Positions 205 through 44,003 of a DNA stretch of 53,025 nt are shown here, in pieces. This DNA is from an uncultured Candidatus Saccharibacteria bacterium (lineage in GTDB: Bacteria > Patescibacteriota > Saccharimonadia > CAILAD01 > JADZBC01): positions 66,850-119,874 of the forward strand of contig CAYPSN010000002.1 of NCBI GenBank assembly GCA_964413715.1, given 5' to 3'. The position numbers were made by a program, and so were the translations under genes. The notes under the pieces were generated by a model. That model worked only from the letters and a program-made list of their open reading frames with translations. It made no database searches and was not told the origin of the DNA. The number at the start of each line of letters is the position of its first letter. The stretch's first letter is position 1.

Positions 205-245
205 TGTCAATAATACTTGACATTTTCCATTATTTATGATAGTAT
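205..245 (+). promoter_or_regulatory. Sigma70-type promoter embedded in a TGTCAA-N6-TTGACA inverted repeat
   Basis: TTGACA 217-222, 17-nt spacer, TAGTAT 240-245. Perfect inverted repeat TGTCAA (205-210) / TTGACA (217-222). AT-rich block abutting GC-rich DNA. Confidence 0.6.
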
Positions 246-34623: not shown

Positions 34624-35906
34624 TGAAGCCGATTATTGAAACACTCTGTGAGCGTCTGGTCAAAGATACTGAAGTCCTCAAATACCAACTTAGCCATACT
34701 ACCAGCCAAGAACTGAGCGGTGGATTCTTAAACAATAAGCTAGGTGGAATTTATCGCCCAATTCAAGCACACAATGCTGCAAGGTTGGCGTATCAAATTG
34801 AGTTTAGTGACGGACAAGTTAGCAAGGGCGGTCTCCCCGCTAGTACTGAAATCGAGCAAATACTGCGGGTTATTCAGCAAGGCAAGCACTCACCTAGTGA
34901 GCCAATCGAGATTGCGCCTAAACAAAAGGTTCCTGCCGTCGAGCTCGTTGATCCAGACCTAAAGGCTAAAATACTACATGATCCGGCCTACGTTAGCACT
35001 AGCGTAAAACAGCTGCAGCAAGACACAGAGTCGAGCGCAATCGAAGACATCGAAGGTGAGATAGAACTTCGCCTTGGCACTACGCGTATCATGAATTCTC
35101 ATGGCCTCGATGTGTCATCCGAAGGCACACGTTACCATGCCTCAGTTGGCCTCAATAGCAGGGTTGGTTATTCGCACAATACGCGGCTGATTAAACAAGC
35201 GACTGGCATACTAAACTATTGTAGTCACTTTGAGCAAATCGCACTCGCTCTCGACAGCAAACCAGCTCAACTCGATTCCGGCACGTATCCAGTATTGTTT
35301 TCCGCTGGAACTGGCTGGGGAATCTTGAGTCAATTTCTGCGCCATAACCTCGACGGCTTCCAACTTAATGCCCGACAGAGTCGCTACACCTTAGACGACT
35401 TTTCTTCCAAGAAGCAAATTGCACACCCAGATTTTAGCTTACACTACGACCAAACATCCCCGATGGACTACCAAAGCTTCAAGTTCGATGGTGAAGGCGT
35501 AACAGCTCAAAAATTCACCCTTATTCAAGATGGTAAACTCACCGCACCTGTCTGCGACCTGAAGTCGGCTCGTCAATTAGGTTTCAAACCAAAATCTTTA
35601 GGTAGCCTAAAGACTAAAGTTGTTCAAGCAAAAACTTATGATGATTTCGTACACAATAATGAAACATTCTTGTTGGTTTTTGGTGTTTTGGGCCTGCATT
35701 CGGTTAACTCAGTAAGTGGTGACTATTCTCTGCCATCAGATAACGTGTTGTTGGTCAGAAATGGCAAAATTGAAGGGCCAATCAATGCAGTTCTCACAGG
35801 CAACTTTTTTGATAATCTGATGGAAACATCAACCCACTTCGTGAATGCATCGCATCTATTTGATTCGCCAGCTCTAACACTTAAGACTCAAGTAACCATA
35901 AAATAA
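34623..35906 (+). CDS. pmbA: PmbA/TldE-family protease partner
   Basis: GTG start overlapping the tldD stop by 1 nt. TldD/PmbA family length and C-terminal pattern. Confidence 0.75.
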   Translation: MKPIIETLCERLVKDTEVLKYQLSHTTSQELSGGFLNNKLGGIYRPIQAHNAARLAYQIEFSDGQVSKGGLPASTEIEQILRVIQQGKHSPSEPIEIAPKQKVPAVELVDPDLKAKILHDPAYVSTSVKQLQQDTESSAIEDIEGEIELRLGTTRIMNSHGLDVSSEGTRYHASVGLNSRVGYSHNTRLIKQATGILNYCSHFEQIALALDSKPAQLDSGTYPVLFSAGTGWGILSQFLRHNLDGFQLNARQSRYTLDDFSSKKQIAHPDFSLHYDQTSPMDYQSFKFDGEGVTAQKFTLIQDGKLTAPVCDLKSARQLGFKPKSLGSLKTKVVQAKTYDDFVHNNETFLLVFGVLGLHSVNSVSGDYSLPSDNVLLVRNGKIEGPINAVLTGNFFDNLMETSTHFVNASHLFDSPALTLKTQVTIK

Positions 35907-35918
35907 TCACAATTGGAG

Positions 35919-35946
35919 AAGGCCCAGAGTCGTAACCCTGGGCCTT
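35919..35946 (+). terminator. Hairpin after pmbA
   Basis: AAGGCCCAG...CTGGGCCTT. Weak U tract. Confidence 0.45.
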
Positions 35947-36091
35947 AAACCCTCCTGCGATGCCGGTCTACAACCAACTCAGATAGCCGTCGCATCGGCT
36001 AGTACACTATCCCCCTGTACTGGGGTCACTGCCATTATGTTGCCTGGCTGCAGTGAGGTGATTCTTTCAAATCTGCCACGGGCCAAGGCCC

Positions 36092-36409
36092 TCAGAACCG
36101 CGTGCTGCACTCCTTGGGGAGCATCAGCACGTCGCCCTTGTTGAACTTCTCCTTGCCGTAGACGCCGCTACGCTGGATGATGAGTCGCCGCCAGGCCTGG
36201 AGCGTCTCGCGCGCCGGTTTGGTCGTCTTGGCGAACTCATCGAGCGTCAGGGGCGTCTGGAGCGTCACCTTGGCCTGGCAGGCGTAGCGGTCGTTCAGCG
36301 AGTTGCCGTTCATGGCGTGGCTGACGGCTCCGCAGCTTGTCAGGACGAAGACGAGGAGCATTGCCGCAGTAACCGCGCGGCGCCGATGAGGGTTGATGTT
36401 GGTGTTCAT
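36092..36409 (-). CDS. GC-rich putative lipoprotein (105 aa)
   Basis: Start moved to MNTNINPHRRR. Signal peptide with lipobox LTSC (AAMLLVFVLTSCGA). Confidence 0.55.
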   Translation of the reverse strand: MNTNINPHRRRAVTAAMLLVFVLTSCGAVSHAMNGNSLNDRYACQAKVTLQTPLTLDEFAKTTKPARETLQAWRRLIIQRSGVYGKEKFNKGDVLMLPKECSTRF

Positions 36410-36798
36410 CTTTGAATGCACATAGATACACTCAAAGACGAACACCACTCACATGCTTCACCCCACCGCAGCACTCATCTACATAAGTGCTCTGGTAGGG
36501 CCACCGAGGATTTCTCCTCGATGGTACTCACCCTCCCGCGATACCGACTAGCTTTTTTTCACTAGTCGACTTCTGTTGCCAGGCCGTCGCTACGACCCCG
36601 GAAACCCTGTTAGGGAGTCCCCACCAAGACCGGCAGATCCGGAGTGAGTCCGAAGAGGACTCGCACCTTCTCCACCGGCGGCGGGACTGGTCCGAAGACC
36701 GTTCCAATTTCCCGTGCGTCGTCACCCGCAAGAACAAGCCAGGGATAACCCCGACTCACCCTTGGGGAACGGCCGCCCGGTGTGCGGTAGCACATCAT
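36410..36798 (-). ncRNA. Structured GC-rich non-coding segment immediately 3' of ssrA (tmRNA-related fragment?)
   Basis: No credible ORF. Many helices. 15-nt exact copy (36570-36584) of a tmRNA segment (36996-37010), flanked by a compensated helix (CGAC/GTCG versus CCGC/GCGG). Confidence 0.4.
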
Positions 36799-36799
36799 C

Positions 36800-37163
36800 G
36801 TGGAGCTGGAGGGAATCGAACCCTCGTCCACCAGGTAGCAAACTTACTCGCTACGACCATTCCTGGTTTTGAACTTTGCAGCAGTTCGAGGGCCAGGTCA
36901 CTTGTACTGTGCTTGCGCGCAGCCAGCTGCCAAGTCTTTCCTTGAAGTCACTGTACTTTCACAGTGTCAGCGGTCTATCCCTGCTGTCTTCTCCGCTTCT
37001 GTTGCCAGGCTGCGGTGAATCGGCCCCGAATCTAAGCTTTTTACGGCCCTTTTCGTAACCTTCGCTATCAGGCGGCGGTTATGAGTTTGCCCTGTTTTAC
37101 GAGTCTGAGCAACTCGGGTCGCAAGTAAGCTAGCTAGTCCCGATGTCGAAACCAGTCAGCCCC
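36800..37163 (-). ncRNA. ssrA: tmRNA (SsrA)
   Basis: 5' GGGGCUGACUGGUUUCGAC, 3' GGACGAGGGUUCGAUUCCCUCCAGCUCCA. Acceptor stem has a G3-U pair. Candidate tag frame GGC AAA CUC AUA ACC GCC GCC UGA UAG. Terminal CCA not fully encoded (CGA). Confidence 0.9.
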
Positions 37164-37172
37164 TAGGGCGCG

Positions 37173-37406
37173 TTACAGATAGCCAGCCAAGGTACGCGCA
37201 TCCTCGGCATCGTGGTGGTCCGACTGAGCGGCGGCACAGGCGTGCCCGGTCTCATGCCCGATGTCGAAACCAGCCTCGAAGATGAGGTACATCGTTTCCA
37301 TCAGCGACAGTCCCTGAGCTCGGGCTTCGACCAACAAGGCCTGAACCGTGAGCTCTACCGCTTCCTCGAAAACTTCTTCCGACATTTCCTCGGGGGTGAT
37401 GGACAT
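37173..37406 (-). CDS. Small acidic hypothetical protein (77 aa)
   Basis: ATG 37406 preceded by GGGAGGAAGG. Stop lies 9 nt before the tmRNA 5' end. Confidence 0.5.
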   Translation of the reverse strand: MSITPEEMSEEVFEEAVELTVQALLVEARAQGLSLMETMYLIFEAGFDIGHETGHACAAAQSDHHDAEDARTLAGYL

Positions 37407-37515
37407 AAGCCTTCCTCCCACGCTATGGAGTTGCGATTCAACTCCCCGGCGGGAGGCATCCGCCTCTTACCTCCGGCTGAGGAGTTGAATGGTGTGCGGC
37501 TTGTAAAAGTGCTCT

Positions 37516-37569
37516 GATAGTTTCGTCGTTTCCGACTCATCAGCCCGGACATACATCCGAGGACTATCC
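37516..37569 (-). ncRNA. Type III hammerhead ribozyme (HH6)
   Basis: Minus strand: GGAUAGU-C, stem I CUCGGA-UGUAUG-UCCGGG, CUGAUGA, stem II GUCG-GAAA-CGAC, GAAA, CUAUC. Cleavage predicted after C at 37562. Confidence 0.8.
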
Positions 37570-38733
37570 ACTCACGAACTCACAATGGAGCTCGCGAGCG
37601 ACCCTGGGGAGCCTCTGCAGGTTTTTTAAACCGTGCAAAGTCTACAACCCAGGGAAGGATTGTCCGGCTTTCACTCGATGGAGTGACCCGGAGCGGCTTA
37701 CCTTCGGCCGCGGCGTGATTGCGTTCGCTTCGGAGGGCACATTGGTTTTCAGGCCGCTGTGTCCGGGGTGACGAAACGCACTTTCAGCTAGTGAAGTTAA
37801 CCCCAGATCATTTGTTGATTTCCTACCGCTCTCGCGGTCGCGCGCCCATGTTGGGCCCAACACGTCGAGGTTTATACTCCTCGCAGGCTGATCTCTTCTC
37901 CTCTTCTGCCGTTATCCTCTTCCCGGGCTTGTTCCGGTCTACGCGGGCCTCCCCTGGGAGGCCAAAGGGCGACTTTACTAGCATCGAATCTGGGAGCTGC
38001 ACACTCGCGTGGCGCTCACCATGAGATGGGGGCTGGTAAAGCTAGGTCAGCTCTTTACCATGTCGGACTTCATACCACGCGTGCAAGCGTAGCCGACTTT
38101 GACCACAGATGCTGGTTTTACCCAGCTTAGGGGGATCCCCCCTGAGCACTCTGCAGCACCCTTATCCTCAGTCGTCTTCTTGGCATCCACCCCGGCCAGG
38201 GCTTCAACCATGCTGCGGGGCTATCCGCAGCTCCCTCTTTTCAGATTGGGCTTGCCAGGCCCAAACCTTGAGGTATGGCCCGACGGCGACTGATTTCCTG
38301 CCCTTTGCCTGAAGCACGTTTGTACGTGATCCGGACTCCCATGAATGGCGGGCAGGTGGCCTTGACTCTTAGCTTGCGGCTTCGAGCTGTACCACCATTC
38401 TTTTCCGATACACCTGCCTTGGCGGGCAGAATATACCACTAACTTCGTCAGCCCCGCCAAGGACCGCGATACTTGCTAAATGCGTTGGATCCTACCAAGA
38501 GGCACACTGTCACAAGCATGGAGATTTAAATGATGCCTATGGCATCACTCTGCAAAACACCGGGAGTAGGTGCGTTGCATATCATCCCTCGCGGGACTGT
38601 CAGGCTCTCCACAGCCAGGGTGCTGGGTGTTCTGTCTTGCTGTGATGTAAATATTTACAGAACCCAGCGCCTTGACTGTTGAGAACCTTTGACGATTATT
38701 TTGTAACGTTCTATGCAGTTGTTATCTGCACTG
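37570..38733 (-). ncRNA. Large (about 1.16 kb) GC-rich ORF-less structured RNA candidate
   Basis: Lies between promoter 38740-38768 and HH6. Only short Arg/Pro/Gly-rich ORFs. Numerous long helices, for example CCUUGGCGGG/CCCGCCAAGG (38413-38461) and CUGGGUUCUGU/ACAGAACACCCAG (38618-38663). Confidence 0.45.
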
Positions 38734-38739
38734 TTGAGT

Positions 38740-38768
38740 ACTATACACATTAGTCTATTTTTTGTCAA
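38740..38768 (-). promoter_or_regulatory. Consensus sigma70 promoter for the ssrA-containing transcript
   Basis: Minus strand TTGACA (38768-38763), 17-nt spacer, TATAGT (38745-38740). Confidence 0.6.
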
Positions 38769-38884: not shown

Positions 38885-38913
38885 ATAACAAAAAAGACCC
38901 TTAGTCGGGTCTT
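38885..38913 (-). terminator. Intrinsic terminator (strong on the minus strand)
   Basis: AAGACCC-GACUAA-GGGUCUU followed by UUUUGUUAUAAAAAG on the minus strand. Confidence 0.7.
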
Positions 38914-39346
38914 GATTGTGATGATTGCTTTGTGGGTGGTCGGGGTGGTGCGGATCCATGCGGATCCGCACCACCCTCGACCTTATCAACGAACCCCTGC
39001 TGCTTCAACTACGCTTGGACAGCGCGCGCCTAGTTGCCTTGTGGCTTGCGGCGTTTGACAGCATGGAGAGTTGGCCCTGACTTGACCAGGGCATGGGCGA
39101 CCTTGTATTCAGTAGCCCCAACTGCGTTGGTTAACCAACGTGGAGTCGTGGCCTAGATGCCATCTCCCATGTATTTACCTCCTGGTTCGCCCTGGTAAGG
39201 GCTGGATGTGGTGCCCTTCGTTGAGTTCGGGGGAGCGAGCATTGCCCGCTCCCCCTCGCTCCAGCCGCCCCCAACAGGGGGATGTTAGAAGGATTACAGA
39301 CCCTCTCCCATGACTTCCCCCTTGGGTAGATCGGCAACGATAGGCA
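38914..39346 (-). ncRNA. About 430-nt GC-rich ORF-less transcript candidate bounded by a promoter and a terminator
   Basis: Promoter 39353-39381 and terminator 38885-38913. Contains a 14-bp perfect hairpin GGTGGTGCGGATCC/GGATCCGCACCACC (38946-38977). Only spurious-looking ORFs. Confidence 0.5.
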
Positions 39347-39352
39347 CTTAAT

Positions 39353-39393
39353 ATGATATCAGATTGTTTCAAATTTGTCAAATAATATTGACT
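39353..39393 (-). promoter_or_regulatory. Sigma70 promoter within a TGTCAA-N6-TTGAC inverted repeat
   Basis: Minus strand TTGACA (39381-39376), 17-nt spacer, TATCAT (39358-39353). Inverted repeat 39376-39393 directly after the TrmB-like gene stop. Confidence 0.6.
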
Positions 39394-40155
39394 TTATTTT
39401 TTATCCTTAGTCCACGCTAGTTCAAATAGCTGCCTGAGAGCTCCTACGATTTCCTTACTCTCAATAACGATGCCTGCTGAAGATTTACCTTCGCTTCCAT
39501 AAGAAATCAGGAGAGCCCTGTCCTCGTACAAGTTGATGTCTGCCTGAACAGGGCTATTGAGGCGCATTGTTTCCCTCAATAAGCCTTTATCTGACGGCAC
39601 TTCATCCTTAAATGAGTATATAAGTTTACTAGATAGTCTTTTCTTTAAACGATTTTTAGGGCTAGTTTTTTCTATGTCAGGCACAAGACGAGTCACTTCA
39701 TCGTAATTGCTCATAGCGTATATCGTAGAGCCCACTCGAGCTTTTCTCCGAGTGTCCGAGGTGGTACTATTGATGCCCTCAAGGCCTTTGTAAAAACGAA
39801 CCACGGGAGCCTCTCCAGCAGAACCATGCTCCTGCTGCTTCAAACTCGGCATCAGGTTCTTCAGCTCGCTCTTCTTCGTTTCAATACTCGACTTTTGGCT
39901 GTCCAAGTAACGTTCGAGTGCCTCGGGTGGTTCGGCTACGAAAACAGTTTTTTTACCTTCTGTAGACTGGCTTACTAATCCCATTTCGGCTAGTTCATCT
40001 AGTATTACGTAAGTGGTAGCACGGTTAACCTCGGACTGCTGTGCGATCTTTTGTGCACTAGCTGAACCTAGAAAAAGCGCGGCCACGTACACACGTGCCT
40101 GCTTGTCGGCCAGGCCTACAGATTGTAATTTAGCTGCGAGTTCAATAATTTGCAT
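39394..40155 (-). CDS. TrmB-family transcriptional regulator (paralog 1)
   Basis: N-terminal wHTH LGLADKQARVYVAALFLGSASAQKIAQQSEVNRATTYVILDELAEMGLV, a coiled-coil linker and a C-terminal domain. Start moved to MQIIEL (40155). Confidence 0.8.
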   Translation of the reverse strand: MQIIELAAKLQSVGLADKQARVYVAALFLGSASAQKIAQQSEVNRATTYVILDELAEMGLVSQSTEGKKTVFVAEPPEALERYLDSQKSSIETKKSELKNLMPSLKQQEHGSAGEAPVVRFYKGLEGINSTTSDTRRKARVGSTIYAMSNYDEVTRLVPDIEKTSPKNRLKKRLSSKLIYSFKDEVPSDKGLLRETMRLNSPVQADINLYEDRALLISYGSEGKSSAGIVIESKEIVGALRQLFELAWTKDKK

Positions 40156-40162
40156 GTGTTTA

Positions 40163-40191
40163 AATATACTACATTTGTCAAAATTTGTCAA
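40163..40191 (-). promoter_or_regulatory. Promoter of TrmB paralog 1 (apparently leaderless)
   Basis: TTGACA (40191-40186), 17-nt spacer, TATATT (40168-40163), then 7 nt to ATG 40155. Second TGTCAA copy at 40176-40181. Confidence 0.55.
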
Positions 40192-40266
40192 CAATATATC
40201 AATTTAACCTGTACAAATACGTAATAATGTTGTAGAATAAGTTGTCTCTACCGAAAGGGGACTTCC

Positions 40267-42036: not shown

Positions 42037-42126
<90 letters not shown>

Positions 42127-42156
42127 CGAACTGGTATAGTTTAGCCGAAAACCAGG

Positions 42157-43062: not shown

Positions 43063-43119
43063 TCCCCAGGCTCAAGCAACCCCGCTAGAGCCAGCACCTC
43101 GACACGCCTAGGAGGCGAC

Positions 43120-43272
43120 ATGCACGACGATCAAGAGTGGTTCGACAACCGGGACCTCCTCCCCCGCGGAATCATCCTCGGAGTGAGGCCGAAGCCCACG
43201 AACACGCAAAGCAACACGCTGAGCGACGCACTCGAAGACCTGCTGGAGCGGCGCTTCCTGCGCCGACTCTGA
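43120..43272 (+). CDS. Small hypothetical protein (50 aa), first ORF of the operon
   Basis: ATG 43120 follows GGAGG by 5 nt. Sequence MHDDQEWFDNRDLLPRG... Confidence 0.45.
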   Translation: MHDDQEWFDNRDLLPRGIILGVRPKPTNTQSNTLSDALEDLLERRFLRRL

Positions 43273-43316
43273 CGAGGCAACAAGGTAAACGGGGCGGTAC
43301 CTACAAACCCGCCCCC

Positions 43317-43373
43317 CTGACTCGGAGAGTAACGCGCTCTCCCTGACGATGACCGCGCACGGTCGAAAGTCAG
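43317..43373 (+). ncRNA. Type III hammerhead ribozyme (HH1) preceded by a hairpin
   Basis: CUGACU-C (cleavage after 43323), stem I GGAGAG-UAACGCG-CUCUCC, CUGACGA, one extra U, stem II GACCG-CGCA-CGGUC, GAAA, GUCAG. Hairpin GGGGCGG/CCGCCCC at 43291-43315. Confidence 0.8.
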
Positions 43374-43397
43374 CCGCACCTTGAACCAAGGAGAACA

Positions 43398-44003
43398 ATG
43401 AGCACCCCAGCCCTACTGAAAGTCGTCCTGACGGGCGGTCCCTGCGCCGGAAAGACCACGGTCTTCCGCCGCATCGAGCAAGAGTACGGACACCTGGTAA
43501 CGCTGGTGCCCGAAGTAGCCACCATGCTGCTCTCGAGCGGCTACCCCATGCCCGGACGCGACCTCGACTGGTCGCCCGGCTGGCGAGACAGCTTCCAGCG
43601 AGCCATCGCCACGGTCCAGGAAGAGGTAGAGGCGGCCTACGAAATGCGAGCTAAGGAGCGAGGTCACCGCCTCCTCCTGACCGACCGAGGCCTGATGGAC
43701 GGAGCGGCCTACTACGACAGCCGAGCTGAGTTCCTGAGCGCAACCGGAATCGACCATGGCACTGCCCTGGCTCGATACCAGGCGGTCATCCACCTCGAAT
43801 CCGTCGCCATCGCTCAGCCGGAGCTCTACTCGAAGGGCAACAACCCCTTCCGCTTCGAGACACTTGAGGAGGCCATCCCTCTCGAGGCCAAAACCCGAAG
43901 CGCTTGGGCTGGCCACCCACAGCACACCATCCTGGAGGGCGCCGACCTCGACTACAAGGTTAGCGGTACGCTCAGGGTGCTCGCGGCCTACCTGCAGGCA
44001 TGA
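43398..44003 (+). CDS. P-loop NTPase/kinase-like protein (AAA_28/NadR-kinase-like)
   Basis: Walker A GGPCAGKTT. Roughly 200-aa single-domain P-loop protein. RBS AAGGAG. Confidence 0.65.
   Translation: MSTPALLKVVLTGGPCAGKTTVFRRIEQEYGHLVTLVPEVATMLLSSGYPMPGRDLDWSPGWRDSFQRAIATVQEEVEAAYEMRAKERGHRLLLTDRGLMDGAAYYDSRAEFLSATGIDHGTALARYQAVIHLESVAIAQPELYSKGNNPFRFETLEEAIPLEAKTRSAWAGHPQHTILEGADLDYKVSGTLRVLAAYLQA

What the first reader, a model, noticed from the sequence alone, without database searches (positions are those of the whole stretch)
38885..39393. Self-contained 430-nt GC-rich non-coding unit with its own consensus promoter and terminator
On the minus strand, TTGACA-N17-TATCAT (39381-39353) is followed by about 430 nt of roughly 60% GC sequence. 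A strong intrinsic terminator (stem 38913-38894 plus a U-tract) closes the unit. The longest ORFs (68 aa) are Arg/Pro/Gly-rich and lack an RBS. The RNA contains a perfect 14-bp hairpin (38946-38977) extended by GGUCG/CGACC, and repeated CAUGGGAGA segments complementary to UCUCCAUG (about 39063-39070). Its size fits RNase P RNA, but I could not find the GGAAAGUCC / ACAGAANNNGGCUUA P4 signatures, so the class is open.
Basis: partly seen in the sequence, partly recalled or inferred. Interest (0 to 1): 0.65.

Follow-up and report, generated by a model that had tools for sequence, protein, structure and literature searches.

The report
Structured Saccharibacteria RNA carrying two minigenes
This is a separate gene for a roughly 460-nt, tightly folded RNA, found so far only in Saccharibacteria (TM7) and absent from Rfam, with two ribosome-binding-site-equipped reading frames of only five codons built into its helices, so it is probably an RNA switch operated by ribosomes and is not RNase P RNA.

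Summary
On the minus strand there is a near-consensus extended -10 promoter (39381-39353), about 460 nt at 58% GC, and an intrinsic terminator (38913-38888). The fold is far more stable than shuffles (z = -9.8).

It is not RNase P RNA. It gave no match to any Rfam family that exceeds chance, and the P4 signature sequences are absent.

The organism is a Saccharibacterium (TM7) from activated sludge. The same unit, with its own consensus promoter, follows the orthologous TrmB-like gene in 41 of 43 related loci. Its 5' domain (39347-39211) is a conserved multi-helix junction. 17 homologues fold into it independently. A covariance model found 27 members, with 43 of 47 pairs showing compensatory changes.

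One is SD-AUG-GGA-GAG-GGU-CUG-UAA (MGEGL, 39311-39294). The other is AGGAGG-N7-AUG...UAG (MGDGI, 39170-39153). SD-led short ORFs are about five times commoner than in shuffles. All 27 members have the first minigene, with the SD paired to a CCCCU strand and the stop codon in the apical loop.

My best reading is a ribosome-operated RNA switch or dual-function RNA. The function is inferred, and no RNA-seq evidence was obtainable.

The parts
39377..39392 (.). Palindrome GTCAA-N6-TTGAC overlapping the -35 box; looks like an operator
   Evidence: 4 matches in the window against 0.57 expected. The same GTCA-N8-TGAC arrangement sits at the promoter in most related loci (sequences).
39353..39381 (-). 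Sigma-70-type promoter: -35 TTGACA (39381-39376), 17-nt spacer ending in TGA, -10 TATCAT (39358-39353). Predicted start about 39348-39346.
   Evidence: 11 of 12 matches, TG extension. A promoter in the same place was found in 41 of 43 orthologous loci.
39211..39347 (-). Conserved 5' junction domain. P1: 39347-39336 with 39222-39211. P2: 39335-39332 with 39267-39264. P3 base: 39326-39316 with 39282-39270. P3 tip: 39310-39301 with 39292-39283. P4: 39261-39244 with 39240-39223.
   Evidence: MFE helices; z = -7.7. CM hits have exactly these ends. Covariation.
39315..39323 (-). Shine-Dalgarno sequence 1 (AAGGGGGAA), in the 5' strand of P3
   Evidence: The columns are G in 18-24 of 27 members (helix 6).
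39294..39311 (-). Minigene 1: AUG GGA GAG GGU CUG UAA (MGEGL). The stop codon lies in the apical loop of P3.
   Evidence: A 4-5 codon ORF sits here in all 27 CM members, using all three stop codons.
39268..39282 (-). Anti-SD strand UCCCCCU, then UGUU, then GGGGG. It can pair with SD1 (long P3) or fold on itself as a CCCCC/GGGGG hairpin.
   Evidence: Long P3 in the MFE of every homologue. The local hairpin is the RNAalifold consensus for six relatives.
39189..39202 (-). Small linker hairpin GCCCU-UACC-AGGGC
   Evidence: The equivalent hairpin in relatives shows compensatory changes (columns 155-170).
39178..39183 (-). Shine-Dalgarno sequence 2 (AGGAGG)
39153..39170 (-). Minigene 2: AUG GGA GAU GGC AUC UAG (MGDGI). 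The stop sits in the loop of the GGC-AUCUAG-GCC hairpin.
   Evidence: A second minigene is present in nearly all members.
39062..39069 (-). UCUCCAUG, the long-range partner of the minigene 2 start region (39171-39163)
   Evidence: CCAUG is retained at the equivalent place in L015, L017, L005 and L007 (read from the sequences).
38938..38982 (-). Very stable 3' hairpin: 15-bp perfect stem plus the GGUCG/CGACC extension
   Evidence: (compensatory changes at columns 393-396). Analogous long hairpins precede the terminator in other clades.
38914..38937 (-). Tail left unpaired in the single-sequence fold, containing the conserved CAAAGCAAUCAUC (38932-38920)
   Evidence: In four close relatives AAUCA pairs with UGAUU at the minigene 2 stop (columns 220-224 with 436-440).
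38888..38913 (-). Intrinsic terminator: 7-bp stem, 6-nt loop, T6
   Evidence: Conserved in relatives.

Best explanation
Window 39381-38888 (- strand) is an independent gene for a ~460-nt structured RNA. It belongs to a family found here only in Saccharibacteria, and there it always lies directly downstream of the same TrmB-like regulator gene.

What is shown. The unit has a conserved consensus promoter and terminator. Its 5' multi-helix junction is conserved and shows covariation. Two minigenes are built into helices. In the first, the SD is paired with a conserved CCCCU anti-SD strand, the AUG lies in the stem, and the stop codon lies in the apical loop.

What is inferred. The RNA acts as a ribosome-operated switch. 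A 30S subunit can load on SD1 while the RNA is still being made, or whenever the anti-SD strand folds into its alternative local CCCCC/GGGGG hairpin. Translating 4-5 codons and terminating in the loop opens P3. Translating minigene 2 opens the long-range helices that hold its start codon and, in relatives, tie its stop codon to the 3' tail. Ribosome traffic, meaning initiation, charged-tRNA supply or termination capacity, would then set the conformation of the RNA. That conformation would decide whether its 3' module (stable hairpin, conserved tail, terminator) is available or stable.

The act of translation matters more than the peptide. The last sense codon varies freely, and the Gly codons coincide with the G-rich stem strand.
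For: Independent gene:
- Promoter and terminator are present.
- A second consensus promoter follows the terminator at 38768-38740.
- 41 of 43 orthologous loci have TTGACA-N16-18-TAnnnT right after the TrmB stop codon.

Structure:
- z = -9.8 for the whole RNA.
- 17 divergent homologues each fold by MFE into the same P1/P2/P3/P4 layout, with z from -3.0 to -9.7 and a median of -5.5.
- A CM built from 3 sequences hit the window at exactly the ends predicted by MFE (39211-39347).
- The second model found 5 unseen members and 11 more in metagenome contigs, each 55-70 nt after the TrmB gene.
- On 27 sequences, 87.8% of cells are paired, against 62.7% when shuffled and 39-51% when slid. 43 of 47 pairs show compensatory changes. 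The covariation score is 0.63, against 0.21 and at most 0.14 in the controls.

Minigenes:
- 53 SD-plus-start ORFs of 12 codons or fewer lie in the first 260 nt of 40 RNAs, against 9.8 +/- 3.4 in shuffles (maximum 21).
- 41 of them have Gly in the last four residues, against 2.9 +/- 1.6 in shuffles.
- All 27 CM members have minigene 1 with 4-5 codons. UAA, UAG and UGA are all used, and nine different last residues occur.
- Among the 24 members scored, the SD has at least 3 of 5 nt paired in 21, and the stop has at least 2 of 3 nt unpaired in 21.
- Within the window clade the changes in minigene 1 are mostly third-position (GAG/GAA, GGU/GGC, CUG/CUC).

Alternative pairing: the local CCCC/GGGG hairpin is predicted by RNAalifold. 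The long P3 is predicted by every single-sequence fold.

Not a protein gene: tblastx matches occur in all frames.
Against: - No transcript was seen. No RNA run holds this stretch, and metatranscriptome contigs cover only the neighbouring RNA and tmRNA of relatives.
- Translation was not observed. In the folded RNA both SD1 and the AUG are paired, so initiation may be poor. The SD/AUG/stop pattern could partly be a by-product of a G-rich palindromic stem.
- The covariation counts come from a model-fitted alignment, which leans towards the structure.
Its close relatives score 21-27 bits with the second, the same range as chance hits in GC-rich genomes. Membership of the window therefore rests on position, architecture and minigenes as much as on score.
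- No target or output was identified. The conserved tail has no better-than-chance complement in the window.
Confidence: 0.5

Rival explanations
1. The unit is an mRNA whose products are the tiny peptides themselves (fMet-Gly-Glu-Gly-Leu, fMet-Gly-Asp-Gly-Ile and relatives). These might act as signals or metabolite-like effectors in an epibiotic bacterium. The structure would serve only stability and translational control.
For: SD, start and stop are conserved, and Gly is enriched (32% of residues) with Ile or Leu as the commonest last residues. Longer variants keep a C-terminal GG-x-G-[ILF] motif, for example MNKFGGEGLPG, MGMIKVGGGI and MTARIGGGI.
Against: Nine different last residues occur among the 27 close members, and ORFs can be as short as 4 codons. 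The Gly codons coincide with the G-rich stem strand, so RNA pairing alone could explain them. About 400 nt of conserved structure is a great deal for a 5-codon message.
Confidence: 0.15
2. The RNA is a decoy or sponge. The SD/AUG elements mimic translation-initiation regions to bind 30S subunits or an RNA-binding protein (CsrA-like, S1, or the neighbouring TrmB-like protein) without productive translation.
For: There are two strong SD motifs and many GGA/GGG motifs. The promoter is near consensus, which suggests high abundance. SD1 is held in a conserved helix.
Against: A decoy needs no in-frame stop codon at a fixed distance, yet all 27 members keep one while the loop sequence around it varies. 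No binding partner was identified.
Confidence: 0.12
3. The unit is a long leader or attenuator. Translation of the minigenes controls read-through of the 38913-38888 terminator into the downstream unit (long RNA, hammerhead, small ORF, tmRNA), as with mgtL/mgtP or trpL.
For: Short ORFs embedded in alternative structures upstream of a terminator are the classic attenuator layout. In the L042/L045/L046 clade a single minigene precedes a conserved ~70-aa ORF on the same transcript.
Against: A separate consensus promoter follows the terminator in the window and in relatives. Downstream genes differ between lineages. The terminator lies about 240 nt beyond minigene 2, separated from it by a very stable independent hairpin, so no alternative pairing with it is evident.
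Confidence: 0.1
4. It is a diverged housekeeping RNA: RNase P RNA, 6S RNA, SRP RNA or a T-box leader.
For: The size is close to RNase P RNA. Some CPR RNase P RNAs fall below Rfam's noise cut-off (PMC8172020).
Against: No hit to RF00010 or RF00011, or to 6S, SRP or T-box models, even at E<=10 on 531 nt, and none in 19 related loci at gathering score. There is no GGAAAGUCC-like or ACAGAANNNGGCUUA-like sequence. The diverged CPR RNase P RNAs described in PMC8172020 were still found with RF00010 and kept many conserved features. The conserved core here is an SD/anti-SD helix carrying a minigene.
Confidence: 0.02

Closest known systems
Leader RNAs with embedded short ORFs (Salmonella mgtA leader with mgtL; mgtCBR leader with mgtM and mgtP; trpL/hisL attenuators). 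Comparison from my own knowledge.
   Same: A structured RNA of a few hundred nt, in which one or two very short SD-led ORFs overlap alternative helices, so that ribosome position decides the fold.
   Different: Those are 5' leaders of the operon they control. This unit has its own terminator and is followed by a separate promoter and by different genes in different lineages. Its ORFs are far shorter (4-5 codons), and no regulated gene is evident.
Dual-function sRNAs (SgrS/SgrT, RNAIII/hld, SR1/SR1P). Comparison from my own knowledge.
   Same: A stand-alone RNA gene with promoter and terminator, a conserved structure, a translated small ORF, and a 3' hairpin with a tail left unpaired in the single-sequence fold and a terminator.
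   Different: Their ORFs encode 26-43 aa peptides with functions of their own. Here the ORFs are 4-5 codons with variable last residues, there are two of them, and they lie inside helices. No base-pairing target is known.
Phage lambda bar minigenes (AUG-AUA-stop with a strong SD). Comparison from my own knowledge.
   Same: Very short SD-led ORFs, often ending in Ile or Leu plus a stop codon. Such minigenes promote peptidyl-tRNA drop-off.
   Different: The bar minigenes are not embedded in a conserved structured RNA gene. Whether drop-off happens here is unknown.
tmRNA (RF00023), present 1.7 kb downstream at 36798-37163
   Same: A ~360-nt structured RNA with an internal short reading frame. It is genomically linked in many Saccharibacteria.
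   Different: tmRNA has a tRNA-like domain and a frame entered without SD or AUG. This RNA has neither a tRNA-like end nor an Rfam tmRNA match, and it has classical SD-AUG starts.
Bacterial RNase P RNA (RF00010, RF00011)
   Same: Similar size, high GC content and a multi-helix fold.
   Different: No model match, no CR-I or CR-V/P4 sequences, and a different conserved core.

Membership tests
Bacterial RNase P RNA | Match to the Rfam covariance models RF00010, RF00011 or RF00373 | tested here: not met
   No hit at gathering score. None at E<=10 on 3.5 kb or on 531 nt. A match below about 13 bits would not have been listed.
Bacterial RNase P RNA | Universally conserved CR-I (GAGGAAAGUCC) and CR-V (ACAGAANNNGGCUUA) strands that form P4 | tested here: not met
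   Pattern searches with 2-3 mismatches find nothing in 38885-39393. GGGGGAAGUCAUGGG resembles CR-I in the window only and is GGGGGCAUCAUGGG in relatives.
Bacterial RNase P RNA | Pre-tRNA 5' leader cleavage activity | not testable with these tools
   Needs an in-vitro assay.
tmRNA | tRNA-like domain formed by the 5' and 3' ends, and a tag ORF without SD or AUG | tested here: not met
   The only RF00023 match in this region is 36798-37163. ARAGORN finds no tmRNA or tRNA in the unit.
T-box, 6S, SRP, OLE, ROOL, GOLLD, raiA and other curated RNA families | Rfam 15 model match | tested here: not met
   where the only sub-threshold hits are hairpin look-alikes (IhtA, rli61, miRNAs). One search finds no hit in the homologous units of 19 loci.
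Ribosome-dependent attenuator or leader RNA | Short SD-led ORF overlapping mutually exclusive helices | tested here: met
   SD1 pairs with the anti-SD strand in the long P3, or the anti-SD strand forms a local hairpin. The minigene 2 start is paired to 39069-39062.
Ribosome-dependent attenuator or leader RNA | A terminator whose formation competes with an ORF-dependent helix, directly upstream of the regulated gene | tested here: not met
   The terminator is an isolated hairpin about 240 nt after minigene 2. A new consensus promoter follows it, and downstream genes are not conserved.
Dual-function sRNA | Stand-alone promoter-to-terminator RNA gene with conserved structure | tested here: met
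Dual-function sRNA | Demonstrated translation of the ORF and a base-pairing target | not testable with these tools
   No usable RNA-seq or Ribo-seq data. No target in the window.
Protein-coding gene | A conserved long ORF with frame-consistent similarity | tested here: not met
   tblastx hits occur in all three frames with frame switches in the window clade. In contrast, the L042/L045/L046 clade shows single-frame hits.

The most novel reading that the evidence does not exclude
A previously undescribed class of ribosome-gated RNA. It would be an abundant structured RNA whose two 4-5-codon minigenes are its working parts. It could report translational capacity, such as the supply of charged tRNA from the host in an amino-acid-auxotrophic epibiont. 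Or it could throttle translation itself through peptidyl-tRNA drop-off or ribosome capture. It would act within a conserved RNA island that also holds a hammerhead ribozyme and tmRNA, and so might link to ribosome rescue.
Probability: 0.15. Interest if true: 0.85.

Novelty: new variant of a known kind. Interest (0 to 1): 0.68.

Why it matters
Saccharibacteria and other CPR bacteria have tiny genomes, and almost nothing is known about how they regulate themselves. This RNA gene is conserved, driven by a near-consensus promoter and heavily structured. It has kept its place next to one regulator gene across lineages whose TrmB orthologues are down to about 51-56% identical to the window's, so it is likely to matter to the cell.

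Its layout is unusual. Two minimal translation units, each with an SD, an AUG, 3-4 codons and a stop in a hairpin loop, are built into a junction that shows covariation. This gives a directly testable case of ribosomes acting as the effector of an RNA switch in a stand-alone RNA.

The finding also has a practical use. This GC-rich gap should not be annotated as RNase P RNA or left as an unexplained spacer, and the model built here supplies a working definition of the family.

Tried and rejected
- RNase P, 6S, SRP, T-box and tmRNA: rejected.
- A long protein-coding gene: rejected for the window clade.
- RNA-seq support: tried five ways and uninformative, plus one ambiguous 151-nt contig on L043 that also spans the promoter.
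- Metagenome scan with an exact 23-mer from the neighbouring leader: no hits. The genome scan with a 27-mer from the same leader returned only the two known relatives.
- MAFFT alignments of distant members were not consistent with the structure. RNAalifold on them recovered only P2, P4 and the local CCCC/GGGG hairpin. I therefore used iterated covariance models instead.
- A context-free genome scan for the P4 motif returned only the four known Saccharibacteria loci plus chance hits in GC-rich genomes.
- A search for a target of the conserved 3' tail within the window gave chance level.
- Literature searches found no description of this RNA.
- A consistent downstream regulated gene was not found.

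Full report
**1. The observation**

- The promoter is TTGACA-N17-TATCAT (39381-39353) with a TGn extension, matching 11 of 12 consensus positions.
- The terminator is a hairpin at 38913-38894 followed by T6.
- From the predicted start (about 39347) to the end of the T-run the RNA is about 459 nt at 57.7% GC. The window as a whole is 49.6% GC and the upstream gene 44%.
- The perfect hairpin has 15 bp, not 14 (38976-38962 with 38957-38943). It is extended by GGUCG and CGACC across a bulged A.
- CAUGGGAGA occurs at 39312-39304 and 39171-39163, and UCUCCAUG at 39069-39062. Their pairing needs one bulged G.
- The whole RNA folds at -221.8 kcal/mol, against -164 +/- 5.9 for dinucleotide shuffles (z = -9.8).
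- The two 68-aa ORFs exist but are not conserved as proteins. tblastx between relatives matches in all three frames with frame switches.

**2. What it is not**

Rfam 15 finds only a tmRNA (36798-37163, - strand) and tRNA-Ser (42041-42127 by Rfam; 42038-42127 by ARAGORN) at gathering score.

Permissive scans of 3.5 kb and of the 531-nt unit alone (E<=10) give no RNase P, 6S, SRP, T-box or other plausible match. They return only hairpin look-alikes. The RNase P P4 signature strands are absent.

A published survey of complete CPR genomes included two Saccharimonadia. It found diverged but recognisable class-A RNase P RNAs in all of them using RF00010 at lowered thresholds (PMC8172020). An unrecognisable RNase P is therefore not expected in this lineage.

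**3. Organism and context**

The upstream gene (39394-40194, - strand) encodes a TrmB-family regulator. Its closest relatives are in Saccharibacteria MAGs. The window sequence itself is found in activated-sludge and wastewater metagenomes.

In every close relative the gene order is the same:
1. The TrmB-like gene.
2. This unit, with its own promoter and terminator.
3. A second consensus promoter (window 38768-38740).
4. A long GC-rich RNA ending in a type III hammerhead.
5. tmRNA.
6. Genes for TldD/PmbA on the opposite strand.

I collected orthologous TrmB loci from GTDB species representatives, other assemblies and JGI metagenomes. In 41 of 43 of them a TTGACA-N16-18-TAnnnT promoter begins within a few dozen bases of the TrmB stop codon. 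The unit is therefore a conserved, separately promoted gene.

**4. A conserved structured 5' domain**

I folded the first ~130-150 nt of 17 homologues one at a time. Their mean column identity in MAFFT is only 48%. Each fold gave the same architecture:
- A closing helix, P1.
- A short helix, P2.
- A long hairpin, P3.
- A GC-rich hairpin, P4.
- Often a small hairpin, P5.

Each homologue is much more stable than its shuffles, with z from -3.0 to -9.7 and a median of -5.5.

A covariance model built from three sequences of another clade (L019, L023, L027) gave one hit in the window. It covered 39211-39347 on the minus strand, which is exactly the domain ends I had derived from the MFE. The score was weak (19.5 bits, E about 1 in 638 kb).

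A second model built from the 12 hits then found more members:
- Five members it had not seen.
- Eleven more in independent metagenome contigs, each 55-70 nt downstream of a TrmB gene and preceded by a consensus promoter.

Pair statistics on the 27-member alignment:

| Measure | Observed | Shuffled control | Slid control |
|---|---|---|---|
| Cells forming a standard pair | 87.8% | 62.7% | 39-51% |
| Covariation score | 0.63 | 0.21 | at most 0.14 |

43 of 47 pairs have compensatory changes.

Two caveats apply. The alignment is fitted to the model. The window-clade relatives score only 21-27 bits, a range also reached by chance hits in GC-rich genomes. For the window clade the case therefore rests on four things together: position, orientation, architecture and the minigenes.

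**5. The minigenes**

Both copies of CAUGGGAGA are the start of a five-codon ORF behind a strong Shine-Dalgarno sequence:
- AAGGGGGAA-N3-AUG GGA GAG GGU CUG UAA (MGEGL, 39311-39294).
- AGGAGG-N7-AUG GGA GAU GGC AUC UAG (MGDGI, 39170-39153).

Close relatives carry AUG GGA GAA GGC CUC UGA (MGEGL, with three third-position changes and a different stop) and AUG GGU GGA GGU CUC UAG (MGGGL).

All 27 model-defined members have a first minigene of 4-5 codons. Examples are MDGI, MDGL, MGGY, MGGV, MEGV, MGAL and MNTG. All three stop codons are used and nine different last residues occur. Nearly all members have a second minigene about 100-150 nt downstream.

Across 40 loci, counting only the first 260 nt of each RNA:

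| Count | Observed | Shuffles |
|---|---|---|
| SD-led ORFs of 12 codons or fewer | 53 | 9.8 +/- 3.4 (maximum 21) |
| Those with Gly in the last four residues | 41 | 2.9 +/- 1.6 |

These counts are inflated by relatedness, but the enrichment holds across clearly separate clades.

More distant loci have a different 5' region but keep one longer minigene with the same C-terminal pattern: MTARIGGGI, MGMIKVGGGI, MNLLMGGGGL and MNKFGGEGLPG. In one clade (L042/L045/L046) that minigene precedes a genuine ~70-aa ORF on the same transcript.

**6. How the minigenes sit in the structure**

In the single-sequence folds of the 24 members scored:
- SD1 is paired (at least 3 of 5 nt) in 21.
- The AUG is paired (at least 2 nt) in 20.
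- The stop codon lies in the apical loop (at least 2 of 3 nt unpaired) in 21.

The partner of SD1 is a conserved CCCCU/CCUCC strand. The G and C columns of this helix are conserved rather than covarying (helix 6). That is what one expects of a functional SD and its anti-SD.

The same anti-SD strand can instead form a local hairpin with the G-run that follows it (window CCCCC-UGUU-GGGGG). RNAalifold chose this hairpin on an alignment of six relatives. The two conformations exclude each other: one hides SD1 and the other frees it.

In the window, the AUG of minigene 2 pairs with 39069-39062 about 100 nt downstream. CCAUG is kept at the equivalent place in four relatives (sequences). In those relatives the UGAUU at the stop of minigene 2 pairs with the conserved AAUCA of the 3' tail.

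The loop codon before the stop varies freely while the stop stays in frame. The Gly codons coincide with the G-rich stem strand. I therefore infer that translation itself, rather than the peptide, is under selection.

**7. Most likely mechanism (inferred)**

I read this as a ribosome-operated RNA switch.
- Ribosomes load on the nascent RNA, or on the SD-free conformer.
- They translate 4-5 codons and terminate in the hairpin loop.
- This prevents or opens P3 and the long-range helices of the second domain.
- Ribosome traffic thereby sets whether the 3' module (stable hairpin, conserved tail, terminator) is available or stable.

I put about 0.85 on 'a conserved structured RNA gene with selected minigenes' and about 0.3 on this particular mechanism.

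The rivals are listed in the Rival explanations section with what would refute each: peptides as the product, a 30S or protein decoy, an attenuator of the downstream unit, and a housekeeping RNA.

**8. What is missing**

- There is no direct evidence of transcription or translation. No RNA run holds the stretch. Metatranscriptome contigs map only to tmRNA and to 37970-38605 of the neighbouring RNA, at 90-95% identity, so they come from relatives. Lower thresholds and related loci gave nothing usable.
- No target, ligand or partner is known.
- Whether the adjacent TrmB-like protein controls the promoter is untested. A GTCAA-N6-TTGAC palindrome overlaps the -35 box there (and the sequences).

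**9. Novelty**

No Rfam family matches the unit in the window or in 19 related loci. Full-text searches found no description of it.

In kind it resembles leader RNAs with short ORFs and dual-function sRNAs. It differs in three ways: it is a stand-alone gene, its two ORFs are minimal, and they are embedded in a junction that shows covariation. I rate it a new variant of a known kind, with a modest chance that it is something more unusual.

Noticed in passing
window 37515-38768 (- strand): A second self-contained unit. A consensus promoter (38768-38740) drives about 1.17 kb of GC-rich, heavily folded RNA (-480 kcal/mol) with no conserved ORF, ending in a type III hammerhead (37569-37515; 43.9 bits against a gathering score of 48.5). 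Blocks such as UUCGAUGCUAGUAAAGU are conserved in L002, L004 and L011. Metatranscriptome contigs of relatives cover 37970-38605. No Rfam family matches the long RNA.
   Followed up: partly
loci L002, L004, L005, L011, L022, L023, L026, L031, L032, L033, L036, L037, L039, L042, L045, L046; window 37520-37543: The hammerhead core CUGAUGAG...CGAAAC recurs on the same strand 1-2.7 kb downstream of the TrmB gene in many Saccharibacteria. It reaches Rfam's gathering score in L032, L037 and L039. L004 and L011 have two copies in tandem orientation; in L004 they are about 500 nt apart, which could release a defined RNA segment. tmRNA follows in at least 11 loci, so TrmB, minigene RNA, hammerhead and tmRNA form a conserved RNA island.
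   Followed up: partly
window 37173-37421 (- strand): An 82-aa ORF between the hammerhead and tmRNA, with a conserved C-terminal motif G-x-x-x-G-H-x-x-G-H-x-C-A ... G-Y-L. Homologues lie downstream of the minigene RNA in L033, L037 and L039. It was not scanned against Pfam here; the gene calls that may correspond to it (L005 7813-7959, L015 7124-7270) carry no Pfam hit on record, though that correspondence was not checked.
   Followed up: partly
window 36798-37163 (- strand): tmRNA is found by Rfam (104.6 bits) but not by ARAGORN. The central pseudoknot region aligns poorly, so this is a diverged tmRNA.
   Followed up: no
window 40153-40191 (- strand): The TrmB-like gene appears leaderless or nearly so. 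TTGACA-N17-TATATT ends 7 nt before the ATG (40155) that begins the 253-aa form found in databases.
   Followed up: no
window 206-221 and 39377-39392: Two near-identical palindromes, GTCAATAATACTTGAC and GTCAAATAATATTGAC, each including a TTGAC -35-like element. These may be operators for one regulator. The pattern GTCA-N8-TGAC occurs 4 times in the window against 0.57 expected.
   Followed up: no
window 36092-36448 (- strand): A lipoprotein-like 118-aa ORF in a 60-65% GC block just downstream of tmRNA. It is conserved in L002 and L004 (sequences). The GC-rich stretch 35906-36798 is therefore at least partly coding.
   Followed up: partly
window 43100-44000: A block of 61-67% GC, against about 50% for the window, containing an AAA_28 ORF (43398-44003, + strand) mirrored by an equally long antisense ORF. 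It may be foreign DNA.
   Followed up: no
L042, L045 and L046, about 190-410 nt after the promoter: In this clade the transcript downstream of TrmB has one minigene (MNKFGGEGLPG, MKKILGGDGFPG or MSKYGGEGLPG). It is followed by a genuinely conserved ~70-aa ORF ending in CPHKVR[IL] (single-frame tblastx hits). This is a coding variant of the same locus.
   Followed up: partly
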